From a virus (Duplodnaviria; Heunggongvirae; Uroviricota; Caudoviricetes): a stretch of DNA of 5,171 nucleotides. This document shows positions 1,365 to 5,171 of the stretch, one piece after another. Every line of letters starts with the position of its first letter. Positions within the stretch are counted from its first letter, which is position 1. Under the pieces are notes generated by a model. The model searched no databases, was not told the origin of the DNA, and saw only the letters and a program-made list of their open reading frames with translations. The stretch lies in the IMG/VR virus record IMGVR_UViG_2602041644_000005. The stretch is one strand, 5' to 3'. Position numbers and translations under genes: made by a program.

Positions 1365-1400
1365 CTACTTAAAATAGCAGAATGCAACTACTTAAAATAG
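1365..1400. promoter_or_regulatory. Two copies of a 13-bp operator-like repeat CTACTTAAAATAG (1365-1377 and 1388-1400), candidate OR sites with PRM/PR-like promoter hexamers
   Basis: Exact 13-bp direct repeat with a 23-bp period. Each copy is an imperfect dyad (CTA.TT.AA.TAG, one mismatch). Each contains TAAAAT (a -10-like hexamer) 5-7 nt upstream of an in-frame ATG of the CI ORF (1382 and 1403). On the minus strand TTGCAT (-35-like) faces the cro-like gene. Confidence 0.5.
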
Positions 1401-2143
1401 AAATGACTAGCGTATGTGATGCGAGTAACCTTCTACCTATGGTAGAAGAACAGAAGTATCCAGATTTCGCCAAGAGACTAAACGAGCTAATGACAAACAA
1501 GGGAATTTCTGTCACCCAACTCAAAAGTCTTGTGGGCGTTACATATGAAATGGCGCGGCGATACACAATCGGCGCTGCGAAGCCTCGTGCCTCTGTCATG
1601 AATAAACTTGCATTGGCTCTGGGGGTATCAGCTTCATATTTAGAATATGGTGTTGGCGAGAGAGAAGGATGTAAGGAAATGGCAAGCATCCCCAATCCAA
1701 CAAAACCCGATGTATACAGGATAGAAGTTTTGGATCTTAGCGTTAGCGCAGGACCTGGAACCTATATGCTTTCAGACTATGTTGATGTGCTCTACGCCAT
1801 TGAGTTCACAACAGAGCATGCCCGTTCTCTTTTCGGTAATCGTTCTCAAGATGATATTAAAGTTATGACTGTAAATGGCGACAGCATGTCCCCTACTCTA
1901 GTTTCCGGAGATCGACTGTTTGTCGACATTTCTGTTCGCAACTTCCAAACTGATGGTGTTTACTCTTTCGTTTATGGTAAGACGTTCCACGTTAAACGTC
2001 TACAAATGCAAGGCAACAAACTCGCCGTTCTTTCGGATAATCCAGCCTATGAGAAATGGTACATTGATGAGAAGTCCCAAGATCAACTTTATGTTATGGG
2101 CAAAGCATTGATACACGAATCAATTAAATACAACCGGCTTTAG
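1382..2143 (+). CDS. cI: CI-like phage repressor: N-terminal XRE-type HTH plus C-terminal S24 (LexA-like) self-cleaving peptidase domain
   Basis: HTH segment FAKRLNELMTNKGISVTQLKSLVGVTYEMARRY. The C-terminal domain carries the catalytic Ser motif VNGDSMSPTL and a downstream Lys (HVKRL), as in LexA/CI/UmuD. It is divergent from the cro-like gene. The start is uncertain among in-frame ATGs at 1382, 1403 and 1439; none has an SD, which fits a leaderless PRM-type transcript. The gene symbol is used functionally, not as an identity claim. Confidence 0.85.
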   Translation: MQLLKIEMTSVCDASNLLPMVEEQKYPDFAKRLNELMTNKGISVTQLKSLVGVTYEMARRYTIGAAKPRASVMNKLALALGVSASYLEYGVGEREGCKEMASIPNPTKPDVYRIEVLDLSVSAGPGTYMLSDYVDVLYAIEFTTEHARSLFGNRSQDDIKVMTVNGDSMSPTLVSGDRLFVDISVRNFQTDGVYSFVYGKTFHVKRLQMQGNKLAVLSDNPAYEKWYIDEKSQDQLYVMGKALIHESIKYNRL

Positions 2144-2313: not shown

Positions 2314-3390
2314 ATGACAAAATCAATTTGTTTTTTTAATCATAAAGGTGGGGTAAGTAAAACCACAACAACCTTCAATCTTGGATGGGCACTTGCGGAT
2401 GAAGGCAAGAAAGTATTGATGGTTGACCTTGATTCGCAATGTAATCTAACAGGAATGGTTCTTGGCTATGAAAAGATTGATGAGGGTTTAGATTCTTTTT
2501 ATTCTAGCAGAGATAACTTAACTCTTGGACCTATTGTAGAATATTTGATTAATGGCGGACAACCTGAAGCATACCTTGAAAAAGAAACGGGAAAATTACA
2601 CCCTACACTGCATGAAAACCTTCTGCTTCTTCCCGGACATTTAGATGTTTCGGACTTAGATTCACAGATAAGTGTTTCTCTAAAAATTGCTGCTGGTATT
2701 CCTGCTACAAGAAATATACCAGGGAACCTGCCAAAAATATTACAGCTAATCGCCATGAAGAATAATATTGATTACATTCTTTATGATCTCAGCCCTAATG
2801 TTGGAGGTTTAAATGAAGTAGTTCTCATGTCAAGTGACTATTTTATCGTACCTGTAGCTCCAGACTTTTTTTGCTGGCAAGCAATTCGCTCTCTCTCAAA
2901 AAATATACCTCGCTGGCACAAAGAATTAGCATTATTTAAAGAAAATAATGATGGTAACTCTTCACAATCAATTAAAAATGCACCGCAGTTTCTAGGTATG
3001 ATTCAGCAGAGATACAGGCCGCGTAAAGGAGCACCTGTAAAATCTTTCGAAAAATGGATGGCAGCTATCCGTGATGCTGTTGATTCGATCTTAGTGCCAA
3101 ATCTAGAAAAAATTACCTGCATAATTCCACGAGATAAAGTGCAACATGCAATTAACAAAACAACAGTCAGTGGAGATTTATCAGCCTATGATCTTGCGCA
3201 TATTTCCGATTTCAACTCATTAATCGCAATAAGCCAACAACTAGCGACACCTGTTTTCTCCATCAGTGATCAGCAAATTCGCGATTCAGGGCAATTTGGG
3301 CATGCCTTAAATACAATGAAATCAAGCAGAGACGCCTTTAACGAACAATTTAAAGGGCTGGCTCAACGAGTTCTAGAACTTACAAAGTAA
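2314..3390 (+). CDS. ParA/MinD-family P-loop ATPase (deviant Walker A) with an uncharacterised C-terminal extension, 358 aa; orphan, no ParB partner
   Basis: N-terminus MTKSICFFNHKGGVSKTTTTFNLGWALADEGKKVLMVDLDSQCNLT matches the ParA/Soj/MinD deviant Walker A (KGGxxKT[TS]) and the following hhhhDxD motif. A mid-protein hydrophobic beta-strand plus Asp (YILYDLSPN) resembles ParA Walker B. AAGGA lies 9 nt upstream of the ATG. The gene is clearly more AT-rich than its neighbours (hand counts of 60-nt samples give roughly 28-45% GC against about 50% in the cro-side genes). The final about 150 aa are not recognisable. Confidence 0.85.
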   Translation: MTKSICFFNHKGGVSKTTTTFNLGWALADEGKKVLMVDLDSQCNLTGMVLGYEKIDEGLDSFYSSRDNLTLGPIVEYLINGGQPEAYLEKETGKLHPTLHENLLLLPGHLDVSDLDSQISVSLKIAAGIPATRNIPGNLPKILQLIAMKNNIDYILYDLSPNVGGLNEVVLMSSDYFIVPVAPDFFCWQAIRSLSKNIPRWHKELALFKENNDGNSSQSIKNAPQFLGMIQQRYRPRKGAPVKSFEKWMAAIRDAVDSILVPNLEKITCIIPRDKVQHAINKTTVSGDLSAYDLAHISDFNSLIAISQQLATPVFSISDQQIRDSGQFGHALNTMKSSRDAFNEQFKGLAQRVLELTK

Positions 3391-3397
3391 TGCATGT

Positions 3398-3420
3398 GCC
3401 CGGCCGCATAACCGGGCTTT
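3398..3420 (+). terminator. Intrinsic terminator after the ParA-like gene
   Basis: GC stem GCCCGG (3398-3403) pairs with CCGGGC (3412-3417) around an 8-nt loop, followed by TTTACTCTTCTTT. It lies 8 nt after the TAA stop at 3388-3390. Confidence 0.55.
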
Positions 3421-3575: not shown

Positions 3576-3633
3576 CAACAACAAATATCTACTTTTTGTT
3601 GTTGATTTTTGCTACTTTAAGTAGCAACATAAT
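3576..3633. promoter_or_regulatory. Candidate OL-type operator/promoter: perfect 19-bp dyad TTGCTACTT-T-AAGTAGCAA (3609-3627), an upstream CTACTT half-site (3589-3594), a flanking 10-bp inverted repeat (3576-3585 / 3595-3604) and CATAAT (3628-3633)
   Basis: The dyad core CTACTTTAAGTAG matches the cI-proximal repeats CTACTTAAAATAG at 11 of 13 positions. The two CTACTT half-sites here are 22 bp apart, against 23 bp at the cro/cI site. -35-like TTGCTA and -10-like CATAAT overlap the dyad. Everything is read directly from the sequence; function is inferred. Confidence 0.45.
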
Positions 3634-3736
3634 GTAAGCTATCACGGACAGGCAGGACGCCCACGAAGTAGCCGCCGGTGGCGTATGAATGACCGGATGA
3701 TTCGTTAGCAACAAAAAAGCGCCCTACCGGACGCTT

Positions 3737-3750
3737 CGCTCTTTAAAAAT
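3737..3750 (+). promoter_or_regulatory. boxA-like element CGCTCTTTAAAAAT (possible nut-site component)
   Basis: Near-identical to the boxA consensus (GCTCTTTAACAA in rrn; CGCTCTTAAAAATT in lambda nutL as I recall it). It sits about 110 nt downstream of the OL-like promoter on the plus strand. No convincing boxB hairpin follows, so this is tentative. Confidence 0.3.
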
Positions 3751-3853
3751 CAGTAACCCTCACTTTGGGCCTGGATCTGGTGGCCTGGGACGAGGTGGAA
3801 TATGAAAAGGCTCTATTGGTCGACTCATTATCCAATCCTATTATGTCTCATTT

Positions 3854-3880
3854 CTTCGGTTTCGGTGGTTTCGGCTTCGG
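3854..3880. repeat. Short hexamer repeat block CTTCGG-TTTCGG-TGG-TTTCGG-CTTCGG (mirror-symmetric)
   Basis: Read directly. It lies 23-50 nt beyond the stop of the minus-strand 164-aa gene, in its 3' flank. Confidence 0.5.
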
Positions 3881-3902
3881 AGGCACATGTCCGTGAACTG
3901 GA

Positions 3903-4397
3903 TTATGCTTGTTGGTCATCATTAATATCCGTTAGTTCATTCTCTAGAGGTAGATCTCCCGCACACCAAGCTATAAATTTTTCTTTGGTTGTTAAATCGT
4001 ACTTAGTTGGAACACCAGCAAAAATACAGGCCCGAATGAAAGCCGCTCGTTCAAGTGATTTCCATGGATTACTATCAGTATCTTGGATTTTTAAATACCT
4101 AGCTTGCAACTGATCTTCAGGAAGGGTATCAGACTCAATCAGCAGTCTTTTGTAATGCCTCGCTTGCTCTTTAGACATTCCAGCCTCTTGGCCAAACTGA
4201 TAGACCAACTGAAGAACCGAAAGTACGGCAACAAACAAACCGAAAATAAATAAATTACTGTACGGGGCGAAAACTGAAAAACCGAGAACGATTAACATCA
4301 ACGTTATTAATTTATCAATGCGAGTTAACAACGTGTAATTCATCTTCTCCAATACATAAGAGTAGTGAACATAAAATTTATAATCGTCTCTGGTCAT
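3903..4397 (-). CDS. Small inner-membrane protein (164 aa; two predicted N-terminal TM helices plus charged C-terminal domain); candidate SieB-like superinfection-exclusion or abortive-infection protein
   Basis: A 495-nt ORF in AT-rich DNA, where stop codons are frequent, so unlikely by chance. The hydrophobic hairpin LITLMLIVLGFSVFAPYSNLFIFGLFVAVLSVLQLVY is followed by a K/E/D-rich soluble region. It is oriented opposite to cI and convergent with the ParA-like gene. The start is ATG 4397, or ATG 4343 with GGAG 3 nt upstream. SieB-like is a guess from size, topology and genomic context only. Confidence 0.65.
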   Translation of the reverse strand: MTRDDYKFYVHYSYVLEKMNYTLLTRIDKLITLMLIVLGFSVFAPYSNLFIFGLFVAVLSVLQLVYQFGQEAGMSKEQARHYKRLLIESDTLPEDQLQARYLKIQDTDSNPWKSLERAAFIRACIFAGVPTKYDLTTKEKFIAWCAGDLPLENELTDINDDQQA

Positions 4398-4496
4398 ATT
4401 AGTCTCAGTTTTCCTTGGGTGGTTTTGGAGGAACTGGAGGCTTTTGTCTTAACGGCACATGCCTCTCCTCATACTTATCTACACATAGATCCATAT

Positions 4497-4553
4497 AAAT
4501 CCTTATCGTTGTTGGGGAGGGTTACATAATAACCAAATCCTTGTTGTTGGGGA
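4497..4553. repeat. Direct repeat AAATCCTT(ATC)GTTGTTGGGGA (4497-4518 and 4535-4553) flanking a small inverted repeat GGTTA-cataa-TAACC (4520-4534)
   Basis: Read directly. It lies in the non-coding region upstream (on the minus strand) of the 164-aa gene, near the right edge of the AT-rich segment. Confidence 0.5.
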
Positions 4554-4782
4554 ATAACCAGGTCCACCTCGCCTGATGTGGCTAAAAGCAGGCACATAAC
4601 AGCTAAGTATTTTCAACCAGAGAGAATCCTTAGCGTTGTGGTGAATGCGCAGGCTGATGCGCGAAAGACATTGCAGCTATTGCGGAAAAGAGCTGTTCGG
4701 CGGGGCAATTAAACGCCCGTGAGAGTCTGAAATAACCGCAAGCCGGAGATCAGCACCGGTCACCACAACAGCCACTGCTTTG

Positions 4783-4828
4783 GCGGTACCAGTTTGTACA
4801 CTTGCTTCCGGCTGGTACCGCTCTTTTT
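4783..4828 (+). terminator. Intrinsic terminator or attenuator (10-bp stem GCGGTACCAG / CTGGTACCGC, 19-nt loop, then TCTTTTT)
   Basis: Perfect 10-bp stem 4783-4792 pairs with 4812-4821, followed by a run of five T at 4824-4828. It is plus-oriented (the minus strand has no T-run after the stem). It lies about 140 nt upstream of the ATG at 4966. Confidence 0.55.
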
Positions 4829-4917
4829 ACAAAACAGAGAAGAGCATCACCGGACGACGGGCTCATAACCCAATCCATCCGGGCGGCTGCCACCGCAGGT
4901 GTTCTTCTCTGTTTTGT
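4829..4917 (+). other. Long-range inverted repeat forming a potential 20-bp RNA helix (4829-4848 with 4898-4917) that encloses about 49 nt, immediately upstream of the RBS of the 4966 gene
   Basis: ACAAAACAGAGAAGAGCATC pairs with GGTGTTCTTCTCTGTTTTGT; 17 of 17 core positions pair if one G-U is allowed, and the helix extends to 20 bp with a second wobble. A stem this long is unusual for a simple terminator and has the length RNase III recognises. Confidence 0.4.
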
Positions 4918-4965
4918 GGAGAAACCAACCGACCTTGCAGGGTCGATATGATGAGGAGCAGCAAA

Positions 4966-5171
4966 ATGGCTAGCGAACGCAGTACTGATGTGCAGGCATT
5001 TATCGGGGAGCTGGACGGCGGCGTATTTGAAACCAAAATCGGCGCAGTTCTCAGTGAAGTCGCTTCCGGTGTGATGAACACGAAAACCAAAGGTAAGGTC
5101 TCGCTCAACCTGGAAATCGAACCGTTTGATGAGAACCGTGTGAAAATCAAACACAAACTCTCATATGTTCG
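4966..5171 (+). CDS. 5' end of a hypothetical phage early protein (open to window end)
   Basis: ATG at 4966 with GAGGAG 9 nt upstream; alternative in-frame ATGs at 4948 and 4951. Translation MASERSTDVQAFIGELDGGVFETKIGAVLSEVASGVMNTKTKGKVSLNLEIEPFDENRVKIKHKLSYV has no stops and ordinary enterobacterial composition. No family recognised. Confidence 0.7.
   Translation, partial: MASERSTDVQAFIGELDGGVFETKIGAVLSEVASGVMNTKTKGKVSLNLEIEPFDENRVKIKHKLSYV

What the first reader, a model, noticed from the sequence alone, without database searches (positions are those of the whole stretch)
4783..4965. Structured leader: intrinsic terminator followed by a 20-bp long-range helix directly upstream of the next gene's RBS
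A plus-strand terminator (4783-4828) is immediately followed by a long inverted repeat (4829-4848 with 4898-4917) that ends about 35 nt before the SD of the gene at 4966. This layout fits an attenuator plus an RNase III processing site controlling the first gene of the leftward-equivalent early operon, as in the lambda N leader. A near-palindrome GACCTTGCAGGGTC (4931-4944) lies between the helix and the SD. The reading frame of the 4966 gene is open back to 4723 but has no plausible start, so this stretch is probably leader, not coding.
Basis: partly seen in the sequence, partly recalled or inferred. Interest (0 to 1): 0.55.

Follow-up and report, generated by a model that had tools for sequence, protein, structure and literature searches.

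The report
Conserved structured leader RNA before phage yfdP
The stretch is a real, non-coding and widely conserved RNA leader (a terminator hairpin followed directly by a 20-25 bp helix that closes a three-armed RNA) in front of the first early gene of a common family of E. coli prophages; it is in no RNA family library and its function has not been tested.

Summary
A GC-rich hairpin (4783-4792/4812-4821) with a U5 run (4824-4828) is followed directly by a helix, 4829-4848/4898-4917. That helix has 20 pairs, or 25 with the U-run paired to GGAGA. Simulated windows reach only 11-15 pairs. The window is the immunity and early-left region of an SfV/ST64B/mEp460-type prophage, and the gene at 4966 is yfdP.

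The layout recurs in 41 distinct versions upstream of yfdP homologs across Enterobacterales: terminator, long helix, purine run, small hairpin, Shine-Dalgarno sequence, AUG. The helix and terminator sequences change while pairing is kept (97.8% paired against 42-56% in slid controls; 11 compensatory pairs). G.U outnumbers A.C 58 to 7, so the plus-strand RNA is what is selected. No reading frame is conserved. Rfam has no match. The element is in 2,493 of 5,426 complete E. coli genomes.

The helix encloses a three-way junction. Its most conserved loop carries 14 bases identical to the anticodon stem-loop of initiator tRNA. The same module occurs in P1-like phages next to STnc100-like RNAs.

Most likely reading: a partial terminator plus an RNase III-type processing helix. 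Neither cleavage nor termination was tested.

The parts
4782..4822 (+). Terminator hairpin: stem 4783-4792/4812-4821, 19-nt loop
   Evidence: Ten perfect pairs (I8). RNAfold gives about -22.5 kcal/mol. A hairpin of -12 to -33 kcal/mol ends 1-2 nt before the U-run in 39 of 41 distinct homologs, with unrelated stem sequences.
4824..4828 (+). U5 tract of the terminator. In read-through RNA it pairs with GGAGA at 4918-4922.
   Evidence: U-runs of 4-8 occur in all 41 versions. The U-run is invariant in alignment A3 and pairs as U-A or U.G in 28 of 28 sequences.
4829..4848 (+). P1, 5' strand of the long helix
   Evidence: Twenty contiguous pairs with 4898-4917. Covariation is shown.
4898..4917 (+). 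P1, 3' strand of the long helix
   Evidence: Same evidence as the 5' strand. G.U 58 against A.C 7 among non-Watson-Crick pairs shows selection on the plus-strand RNA.
4850..4882 (+). P2 arm of the three-way junction. 4858-4871 (CGGGCTCATAACCC) equals the anticodon stem-loop of initiator tRNA.
   Evidence: The P2 stem covaries (3 of 5 pairs). The loop is nearly invariant in A3. The tRNA sequence was checked against annotated tRNA-Met genes present at 4 copies per genome. The motif ACGGGNTCATWNCCCAATC is in at least 120 viral contigs.
4883..4896 (+). P3 arm, a hairpin of variable length
   Evidence: Three of 4 pairs have compensatory changes. Homologs carry insertions of up to about 25 nt here.
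4918..4925 (+). Conserved purine run GGAGAAAC
   Evidence: GGAGA is invariant in A3. The wider family has GGAGUA, GAAGUG or GAGUAA.
4930..4945 (+).
   Evidence: Position and structure are conserved while the stem sequence changes (CGGCGG..CCGCCG, GGCUG..CAGCC). The loop motif U(G/U)GCAG recurs.
4953..4958 (+). Shine-Dalgarno sequence GAGGAG, 7 nt before the ATG
   Evidence: Read directly from the sequence.
4966..5171 (+). 5' part of yfdP; the window ends inside the gene
   Evidence: RefSeq annotates yfdP starting here in a locus 100% identical to the window. Homologs are listed.
4635..4769 (+). Context: STnc100-like structured RNA module just upstream, closed by helix 4635-4644/4760-4769
   Evidence: Ten-bp perfect inverted repeat (I6). 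Copies 97.9% identical occur in P1, RCS47 and IME207. The ST64B and RCS47 versions hit Rfam STnc100 at 35-38 bits, below the gathering score of 47.
3645..3705 (+). Context: conserved 5' module of the early-left transcript ('module 0')
   Evidence: It matches the start of the ST64B leader and many other phages. It has a covarying hairpin. A promoter-like site lies just upstream in MS8345, and an operator-like site is at window 3612-3624.

Best explanation
4783-4965 is the promoter-distal part of a long untranslated leader of the early-left (PL-type) operon of an SfV/ST64B/mEp460-type temperate phage. It has two coupled parts.

1. An intrinsic terminator ends the upstream non-coding leader RNA, which includes an STnc100-like module. 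It lets only a fraction of polymerases continue into yfdP-yfdQ-yfdR and the rest of the operon. It also shields these genes from transcription arriving from upstream.

2. In RNA that reads through, the U-tract and the next 20 nt pair with 4898-4922. This gives a 20-25 bp duplex that closes a three-way junction. A duplex of that length is the substrate of host RNase III. Cleavage would cut the yfdP message free of the long structured leader. It would release the junction RNA as a small stable molecule. It would leave a message that begins with the purine run, the P4 hairpin and the Shine-Dalgarno sequence, and so would set its stability and translation.

Shown here: the structure, its conservation and covariation, the strand, the absence of coding, and the genomic position. 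Inferred: termination, read-through and RNase III cleavage.
For: - Structure and chance.
- Identity of the locus.
- Forty-one distinct versions have a hairpin plus U4-8, then directly a helix of 17-26 pairs, then a purine run, with the AUG 42-51 nt downstream in most.
- Terminator stems are replaced by unrelated sequences while hairpin and U-run stay.
- Covariation on a MAFFT alignment: 97.8% paired against 42-56% when the partner is slid; 11 pairs with compensatory changes; 0 of 500 shuffles reach the observed value.
- A covariance model finds divergent members at the same place on the plus strand. Thirty of 38 pairs show compensatory pair types.
- G.U 58 against A.C 7.
- Not coding.
- Helix length stays at about two turns even where the enclosed RNA differs or is absent (L071), which fits a sequence-independent reader of double-stranded RNA.
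- In P1-like phage RCS47 the same framed module alternates with STnc100-like modules in an array downstream of tRNA genes, as expected for units cut out of a precursor.
- From established knowledge: RNase III cleaves duplexes of about 20 bp or more, processes the lambda N leader, the T7 early RNAs and the rRNA flanking stems, and produces DicF from a prophage early operon.
Against: - No transcript ends or cleavage sites were measured.
- The near-invariant P2 loop and the recurring P4 loop are more sequence conservation than a plain RNase III site needs.
- The terminator hairpins are unusually large (21-68 nt), so their efficiency is unknown.
- In Mixta (L040) the helix follows a promoter with no terminator, so the two parts can work apart.
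- RNase III antideterminant positions were not evaluated.
- The covariance-model alignment is fitted to the structure and leans towards it.
Confidence: 0.45

Rival explanations
1. The functional part is the enclosed three-way junction, not the helix. On this reading it is a small non-coding RNA or protein-binding module whose P2 hairpin imitates the anticodon stem-loop of initiator tRNA, and the long helix is only a scaffold or excision frame. It could act as a decoy or competitor for something that recognises initiator tRNA (a nuclease such as VapC, MetRS, or the 30S P site). It could also be an operator for a translational regulator of yfdP.
For: - 14 of 14 bases are identical to the tRNA-fMet anticodon stem-loop, and 17 of 19 with the flanks.
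- This loop is the most conserved part of the element.
- The P2 motif is carried by at least 120 viral contigs and appears in front of different genes and in P1-like phages.
- tRNA genes or tRNA-like pieces lie nearby in several loci.
- Enterobacterial VapC toxins cleave initiator tRNA (PMC5175351, abstract). Phage tRNAs have been proposed to counter tRNA-targeting defences (PMC10264068).
Against: - Only UCAU and the GGG/CCC pairs are constant. Loop positions 32, 37 and 38 vary (CUCAUUA, CUCAUUC, GUCAUAU, UUCAUAU), and some members have two G-C pairs.
- The resemblance was noticed after the fact. A 14-mer match to some anticodon stem-loop in a 5-kb window has roughly a 0.002 chance.
- Other subfamilies keep the helix with a different interior or none.
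- ARAGORN calls no tRNA here.
Confidence: 0.2
2. The helix is not cleaved. It acts as a stable 5' structure that protects the downstream message from RNase E and keeps Rho from loading on a long untranslated leader.
For: - The leader is 600-1300 nt, untranslated and densely folded.
- The P4 hairpin and the helix sit at a fixed distance from the start codon.
Against: - An uninterrupted 20-25 bp duplex is expected to be an RNase III substrate in E. coli (established knowledge).
- Protection does not explain why helix length stays near two turns, or why the U-run always abuts the helix.
Confidence: 0.15
3. The element is a cis-acting processive antiterminator RNA of the HK022 put or EAR kind. It would modify RNA polymerase so that it reads through terminators further down the early-left operon of these N-less phages.
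For: - No N-like protein or nut site is present.
- The element stands at the head of the operon. In L040 it directly follows a promoter, as putL does (put position from PMC9378689).
- It has conserved loops.
Against: - No sequence similarity to HK022 putL/putR or to the annotated HK639 putL.
- The covariance model finds nothing in those loci.
- put is two stem-loops of about 70 nt, not a helix-closed junction.
- The element lies downstream of the conserved terminator.
- No strong plus-strand terminators were found in the downstream operon of MS8345.
- The promoter-proximal 'module 0' is a better candidate for such a role.
Confidence: 0.08
4. A short leader peptide is translated through the terminator and helix, and the ribosome controls termination as in pyrBI-type attenuation.
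For: One class of terminator hairpins carries GGAGGA, then 8-9 nt, then AUG or GUG, followed by UUCUG inside the loop.
Against: - The window's version has no such start and no Shine-Dalgarno sequence.
- Two members have ACG at that position.
- The GGAGGAAG pairs with an upstream CUUCC in the fold.
- No frame is conserved across the element.
Confidence: 0.03
5. The inverted repeat works at the DNA level, as the ends of a miniature transposable element or as a recombination site.
For: - The module is mobile among unrelated phages.
- Up to 5 copies occur per E. coli genome.
Against: - The arms differ between versions but keep pairing.
- Non-Watson-Crick pairs are G.U on the plus strand 58 to 7 over A.C.
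- A conserved U.G occupies helix position 19 in 26 of 41 versions.
- The U-run pairs with GGAGA only as RNA.
Confidence: 0.03

Closest known systems
RNase III processing hairpin in the lambda N leader (between nutL and the N ribosome-binding site)
   Same: Both are long helices in the untranslated leader between the early-left promoter and the first early-left gene, ending a few tens of nt before the Shine-Dalgarno sequence. Both are expected to tie expression of that gene to host RNase III.
   Different: This element has no nutL (boxA/boxB) and no N. An intrinsic terminator abuts the helix. The helix closes a three-way junction with a conserved loop. There is no sequence relation to lambda, and cleavage is untested.
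RNase III stems that flank 16S/23S rRNA, the T7 early RNase III sites, and DicF maturation
   Same: All have a duplex of about two turns formed by sequences on either side of a structured RNA that is cut out of a longer transcript. The array arrangement in P1-like phage RCS47 fits this picture.
   Different: The enclosed RNA here is only 40-75 nt. No mature product has been observed.
HK022 putL/putR and HK639 putL antiterminator RNAs
   Same: These are also structured cis-acting RNAs in the early leaders of lambdoid phages that lack N.
   Different: put has a different fold (two stem-loops of about 70 nt), no sequence or model similarity, and lies upstream of the terminators it overrides. This element lies downstream of one.
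Rfam STnc100 (RF02076), a prophage-borne sRNA of unknown function
   Same: A relative of STnc100 lies directly upstream (4635-4769), and in P1-like phages it alternates with copies of the helix-closed module.
   Different: The STnc100 model covers only the neighbouring module (model positions 31-147). It does not cover 4783-4965. Even the neighbour scores below the family threshold.
mRNA operators that imitate a tRNA anticodon arm (thrS operator) and bacterial Y RNAs (YrlA: long stem plus tRNA-like domain)
   Same: Both combine a hairpin with an anticodon-loop sequence, or a tRNA-like domain, with a long closing stem.
   Different: No binding partner is known here. The mimicry is limited to one hairpin. 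There is no Rfam match to YrlA or Y RNA.

Membership tests
Intrinsic (Rho-independent) terminator | GC-rich hairpin directly followed by a U-run | tested here: met
   The stem is 4783-4792/4812-4821 and the U5 run is 4824-4828. In 41 distinct homologs the hairpin ends 1-2 nt before U4-8 in 39 cases, with a median of -20 kcal/mol.
Intrinsic (Rho-independent) terminator | Function conserved while sequence drifts | tested here: met
   At least four unrelated stem classes occupy the same position.
Intrinsic (Rho-independent) terminator | Transcript 3' ends at the U-run | not testable with these tools
   This needs Term-seq or in vitro transcription.
RNase III processing site | Double-stranded RNA of about 20 bp or more on the transcribed strand | tested here: met
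   There are 20 uninterrupted pairs, or 25 with the U-run. The range is 17-26 pairs in 41 versions. The plus strand is shown by the G.U excess.
RNase III processing site | No antideterminant base pairs in the proximal and distal boxes | not tested
   The cleavage positions are unknown, so the boxes cannot be placed.
RNase III processing site | RNase III-dependent cleavage | not testable with these tools
   This needs a comparison with an rnc mutant or an in vitro assay.
Lambda-type nut site with N antitermination | boxA (CGCTCTTA-like) conserved | tested here: not met
   The window reads CGCTCTTTTTAC at 4819-4830. Homologs have GCCCTTTTT, GCAATTTTTT or GACCTTTTT. What is conserved is a U-run, not boxA.
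Lambda-type nut site with N antitermination | boxB hairpin plus an arginine-rich N protein as first gene | tested here: not met
   The first gene is yfdP, which has no arginine-rich N-terminus. No boxB-like hairpin with a GNRA-type loop is present; the P4 loop is UUGCAG.
HK022-type put antiterminator RNA | Sequence or structure similarity to putL/putR | tested here: not met
   blastn-short found nothing beyond chance. Direct reading of HK022 and HK639 put shows no similarity. Model R1 has no hit in L008, L009 or L090.
HK022-type put antiterminator RNA | Located between the promoter and the terminators it overrides | tested here: not met
   The element lies downstream of the conserved terminator.
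Rfam STnc100 (RF02076) | Score at or above the gathering score of 47 bits over the region | tested here: not met
   There is no Rfam hit in window 3600-5000 at E<=10 apart from chance-level ones. In ST64B and RCS47 only the neighbouring module matches, at 35-38 bits.
tRNA or tRNA-like gene | Cloverleaf recognised by a tRNA finder | tested here: not met
   ARAGORN finds no gene in the window.
tRNA or tRNA-like gene | Anticodon stem-loop sequence of a real tRNA | tested here: met
   CGGGCTCATAACCC at 4858-4871 equals the anticodon arm of the tRNA-Met gene that occurs at 4 copies per genome. Its identification as the initiator tRNA rests on my own knowledge.
Leader-peptide attenuator | Conserved short ORF with a start codon and a Shine-Dalgarno sequence | tested here: not met
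   Seventeen to 26 of 28 homologs have stops in every frame, and lengths are not multiples of 3. The window has no start codon at that position.

The most novel reading that the evidence does not exclude
The helix-closed junction is one of a family of small RNA cassettes that phages place in their earliest transcripts: the early-left leader of lambdoid phages, and the tRNA region of P1-like phages. RNase III would cut them out. They would then imitate parts of tRNAs, here the anticodon arm of initiator tRNA. The purpose would be to soak up or mislead host factors that attack or use that tRNA, for example VapC-type toxins of Shigella and Salmonella that stop translation by cutting initiator tRNA.
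Probability: 0.08. Interest if true: 0.85.

Novelty: new variant of a known kind. Interest (0 to 1): 0.6.

Why it matters
SfV, SfII, SfIV, ST64B, cdtI, mEp460 and several Stx2 phages share this early region and have no N-type antiterminator. How they meter their early-left genes is not known. The element sits in 46% of complete E. coli genomes and across Enterobacterales, is left unannotated, and is in no RNA family library. It gives a concrete, mutable handle (terminator, helix, loop) for testing early gene control in these serotype-converting and toxin-carrying phages. If the junction RNA proves to be a released product with a tRNA-like face, it would add an RNA-based player to phage-host conflict. 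On the practical side, several database ORFs drawn across this stretch are probably spurious: N-terminally extended YfdP, small minus-strand ORFs in mEp460 and cdtI, and perhaps plp/upl in P1-like phages.

Tried and rejected
1. Pairing between the promoter-proximal module (CCGGAUGAUU, about 3690-3700) and the P2 flank (AAUCCAUCCGG). Rejected: loci with CCAGGAUGAUU keep AUCCGG, so there is no covariation.
2. A pseudoknot between the CUCAU loop and AUGAG at the start codon or Shine-Dalgarno sequence. Duplex energies are no better than for shuffled initiation regions, with a mean z of 0.05. Unsupported, but not excluded.
3. boxA or a nut site. Rejected: what is conserved is a U-run.
4. Homology to put. 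Rejected.
5. Coding, either as extended YfdP, as the 49-aa plus-strand ORF 4802-4951, or as minus-strand ORFs. Rejected.
6. Leader-peptide attenuation. The start codon is not conserved.
7. A DNA-level repeat. Rejected on strand asymmetry.
8. An internal promoter between the terminator and yfdP. The consensus scan finds none.
9. Rfam at permissive thresholds on the window and on ST64B finds nothing for the element itself. The long hairpin in RCS47 gives only chance-level microRNA-precursor hits.
10. Literature searches for yfdP, ST64B leader RNAs, HK639, STnc100 and VapC decoys found no description of this element.
11. Pfam gives no family for YfdP in the library copy used, so the regulated gene gives no clue.

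Full report
**Observation**

The window sequence shows the hairpin GCGGTACCAG (4783-4792) / CTGGTACCGC (4812-4821) with a 19-nt loop, then TCTTTTTA. Directly after it, 4829-4848 pairs with 4898-4917. The repeat finder reports both: I8 with 10 of 10 pairs, and I1 with 25 nt at 84% complementarity. The consensus terminator scan missed the hairpin only because it allows loops of 3-8. An MFE fold of 4700-4970 contains both structures, with z = -5.4 and none of 200 shuffles folding as well.

If the U-run 4824-4828 is paired with GGAGA 4918-4922, the helix has 25 uninterrupted pairs and is the longest in the window. Sixty simulated windows reached 11-15. The near-palindrome is a 5-bp hairpin at 4930-4945. 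GAGGAG lies at 4953-4958 and the ATG at 4966.

**Where it is**

The window carries:
- a YmfL/cII-like gene and cro on the minus strand;
- an S24 repressor at 1382-2143 (+);
- a ParA-like ATPase at 2314-3390 (+);
- a 164-aa ORF at 3903-4397 (-);
- the start of yfdP at 4966.

4400-5171 is 100% identical to an E. coli MS8345 prophage. There RefSeq annotates yfdP-yfdQ-yfdR and about seven more genes downstream, and no gene in the leader. The same leader is found in mEp460, SfV, SfIV, SfII, cdtI and several Stx2 phages. It occurs at about 85% identity in ST64B, Citrobacter phiNP and Klebsiella phages.

Operator-like sites CTACTTAAAATAG occur twice between cro and cI, and CTACTTTAAGTAG occurs at 3612-3624. 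Just after the latter lies a 60-nt module (3645-3705) that matches the beginning of the ST64B leader. In MS8345 it follows a promoter-like site. The early-left transcript therefore most likely starts near 3640. It would run through a convergently inserted gene to reach 4783-4965; this step is inferred. In ST64B and mEp460 the leader is 600-700 nt with no credible gene.

**Comparative evidence**

I fetched 80 loci encoding YfdP relatives from one genome per species. About 50 Enterobacterales loci, giving 41 distinct versions, share one layout:
- a GC-rich hairpin ending 1-2 nt before a U-run of 4-8;
- directly afterwards a helix of 17-26 pairs spanning 40-114 nt;
- a purine run (GGAGAA, GGAGUA, GAAGUG);
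- a small hairpin;
- the Shine-Dalgarno sequence, with the AUG 42-51 nt after the helix in most.

The terminator stems fall into at least four unrelated sequence classes. The helix strands share 56% identity on average and as little as 5%, yet still pair.

On a MAFFT alignment of 28 sequences of the closest subfamily, RNAalifold recovers P1, P2, P3 and P4. The pair count gives 97.8% paired cells against 42-56% when partners are slid. Eleven pairs have changes on both sides, against 0-5 in the slid controls. No shuffle of 500 reaches the observed covariation.

A covariance model built from 21 sequences finds the divergent Yersinia, Serratia, Rahnella, Providencia, Proteus and Morganella versions at the same position on the plus strand. 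On those 26 rows, 30 of 38 pairs show compensatory pair types. That alignment is fitted to the model and leans towards the structure.

With helices anchored by Watson-Crick pairs only, the remaining pairs are G.U 58 times and A.C 7 times. The plus-strand RNA, not the DNA, is therefore under selection.

**Not coding**

Element lengths differ by non-multiples of three. In each of the six frames, 17-26 of 28 homologs have stops. The yfdP frame is open back to 4723 in this window only. Longer YfdP versions in databases (148 and 174 aa) and small ORFs annotated across the leader in mEp460 and cdtI are probably artefacts.

**Anatomy of the interior**

The helix closes a three-way junction. P2 (4850-4882) has a covarying stem and a nearly invariant loop, CGACGGGCUCAUAACCCAAUCC. 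P3 (4883-4896) is a covarying hairpin of variable length.

The 14 bases CGGGCUCAUAACCC equal the anticodon stem-loop of the tRNA-Met gene present four times per E. coli genome. That this gene is the initiator tRNA, with its three G-C pairs and CAU anticodon, is from my own knowledge.

The resemblance is limited. Homologs have CUCAUUA, CUCAUUC, GUCAUAU or UUCAUAU, and some have two G-C pairs. Only UCAU and the flanking GGG/CCC and CCCAAUC are constant. Other subfamilies keep the helix with a different interior, and one Yersinia version has a plain loop.

**A mobile module**

It is nearly always framed by a 19-27 bp helix of varying sequence. It is usually followed by GGAGAA, a hairpin with a UGCAG loop, and yfdP, but sometimes by other genes.

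In the P1-like phage RCS47, downstream of tRNA-Asn and tRNA-Thr and on their strand, two such modules alternate with two STnc100-like modules and end in a U-run. That stretch folds with z = -6.35. The Rfam STnc100 model matches only the neighbouring modules, at 35-38 bits, below its threshold of 47. In the window the STnc100-like neighbour is 4635-4769. It is 97.9% identical to copies in P1, RCS47 and IME207. Nothing in Rfam matches 4783-4965 itself.

**Mechanism**

The U-run always abuts the helix, and helix length is held near two turns whatever the interior. I therefore commit to this reading. The hairpin plus U-run is a partial terminator. It ends a non-coding leader RNA and limits entry into the early-left genes. 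The read-through RNA forms a duplex that host RNase III cuts. Cleavage detaches the yfdP message, which would then begin with the purine run and the P4 hairpin, and releases the junction RNA.

It works like the lambda N leader and like rRNA or T7 processing stems (established knowledge). It is not a member of the nut/N system: boxA is not conserved, there is no boxB, and there is no N. It also differs from lambda in having a terminator before the first gene. Termination and cleavage are inferred, not shown. I put 0.45 on this reading.

**Rivals**

- The junction is itself the active part, a tRNA-like decoy or operator (0.2).
- The helix is an uncleaved protective structure (0.15).
- It is a put-like antiterminator (0.08). 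There is no similarity to HK022 or HK639 put by sequence or model, and its position relative to the terminator is wrong.
- Leader-peptide attenuation (0.03).
- A DNA-level repeat (0.03).

A pseudoknot between the CUCAU loop and the start region was tested and is no better than chance. A long-range pairing with the promoter-proximal module fails covariation.

**Prevalence and novelty**

4776-4965 is present in 2,493 of 5,426 complete E. coli genomes, with up to five copies, mostly with no annotation under it. Literature searches found no description of it. STnc100, its frequent neighbour, is itself of unknown function (PMC12370729). I class the element as a new variant of a known kind: a structured early-operon leader with a terminator and a processing helix. 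It is well supported as a conserved RNA and open as to function.

Noticed in passing
window 4630-4770: This 135-nt structured RNA module is closed by a perfect 10-bp helix (4635-4644/4760-4769). Copies 97.9% identical occur in phage P1, P1-like RCS47 (right after tRNA-Asn and tRNA-Thr, on the same strand) and the T1-like phage IME207. Diverged copies in ST64B and RCS47 hit Rfam STnc100 at 35-38 bits, below its threshold of 47.
   Followed up: partly
window 3645-3705: This is a highly conserved 60-nt module at the presumed 5' end of the early-left transcript, with a covarying hairpin (CCGGU/ACCGG, CCUGG/CCAGG, CCCCA/UGGGG). It is found in lambdoid phages, Pectobacterium ZF40, Yersinia, Pantoea and Aeromonas phages and T5-like Providencia phages. 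It is a candidate promoter-proximal regulatory or antiterminator RNA, with no clear similarity to put.
   Followed up: partly
window 1365-1377, 1388-1400, 3612-3624: The operator-like repeat CTACTTAAAATAG occurs twice between cro and cI, and CTACTTTAAGTAG occurs once upstream of the conserved 5' module. These are probably OR and OL. The same operator with a TTGATT-18-TATAGT promoter sits directly in front of the helix, with no terminator, in Mixta tenebrionis (L040).
   Followed up: partly
window 4498-4512, 4536-4550, 4625-4639: There are three copies of AATCCTTATCGTTGT-like sequence, each followed by a G-rich run. They resemble the 3' strand plus GUGGUGAA/GUGGAGAA junction of the helix-closed modules and may be remnants of further modules.
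   Followed up: no
window 2314-3390 and 3398-3417: A ParA/MinD-type ATPase gene with its own terminator is inserted between the repressor gene and the early-left promoter. It is absent from the otherwise matching MS8345 prophage.
   Followed up: no
window 3716-3737 and 3903-4397 (-): A 164-aa ORF with no Pfam family lies on the opposite strand inside the early-left leader, with a strong terminator for its own strand. The plus-strand sequence after that hairpin reads CGCTCTTTAAAAA, which resembles boxA.
   Followed up: no
L003 (RCS47) 2501-3330: The CDSs annotated as plp and upl lie on the strand opposite to an array of conserved structured RNA modules: helix-closed junction, STnc100-like, helix-closed junction, STnc100-like, U-run. 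These ORF calls may be wrong.
   Followed up: partly
L058 about 1400-1470, L029 about 1500-1560, L027 1322-1400: tRNA-like sequences with T-arm GGTTCGAATCC or GGTTCAAATCC, and one ARAGORN-called tRNA-Ile(aat), lie inside the leaders upstream of yfdP homologs in Proteus, Erwinia and Phytobacter. In P1 and RCS47 a long helix (ACAACAGGUAAGGG/CCCUUACCGUUGU) encloses a T-arm-like hairpin.
   Followed up: no
L015, L025, L026, L057, L064 (Buttiauxella, Kluyvera), about 1390-1600: In these loci the STnc100-like module directly replaces the terminator and helix. It is followed by the same GUGUAUGGAGA run, P4 hairpin and Shine-Dalgarno sequence. The last 45 nt of the yfdP leader are thus a constant cassette behind interchangeable RNA modules.
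   Followed up: no
L090 (HK639) 10188-10313 and 13911-13970: The HK639 record annotates a 'putL-like antiterminator RNA' and an 'M3-like RNA'. Neither resembles anything in the window.
   Followed up: partly
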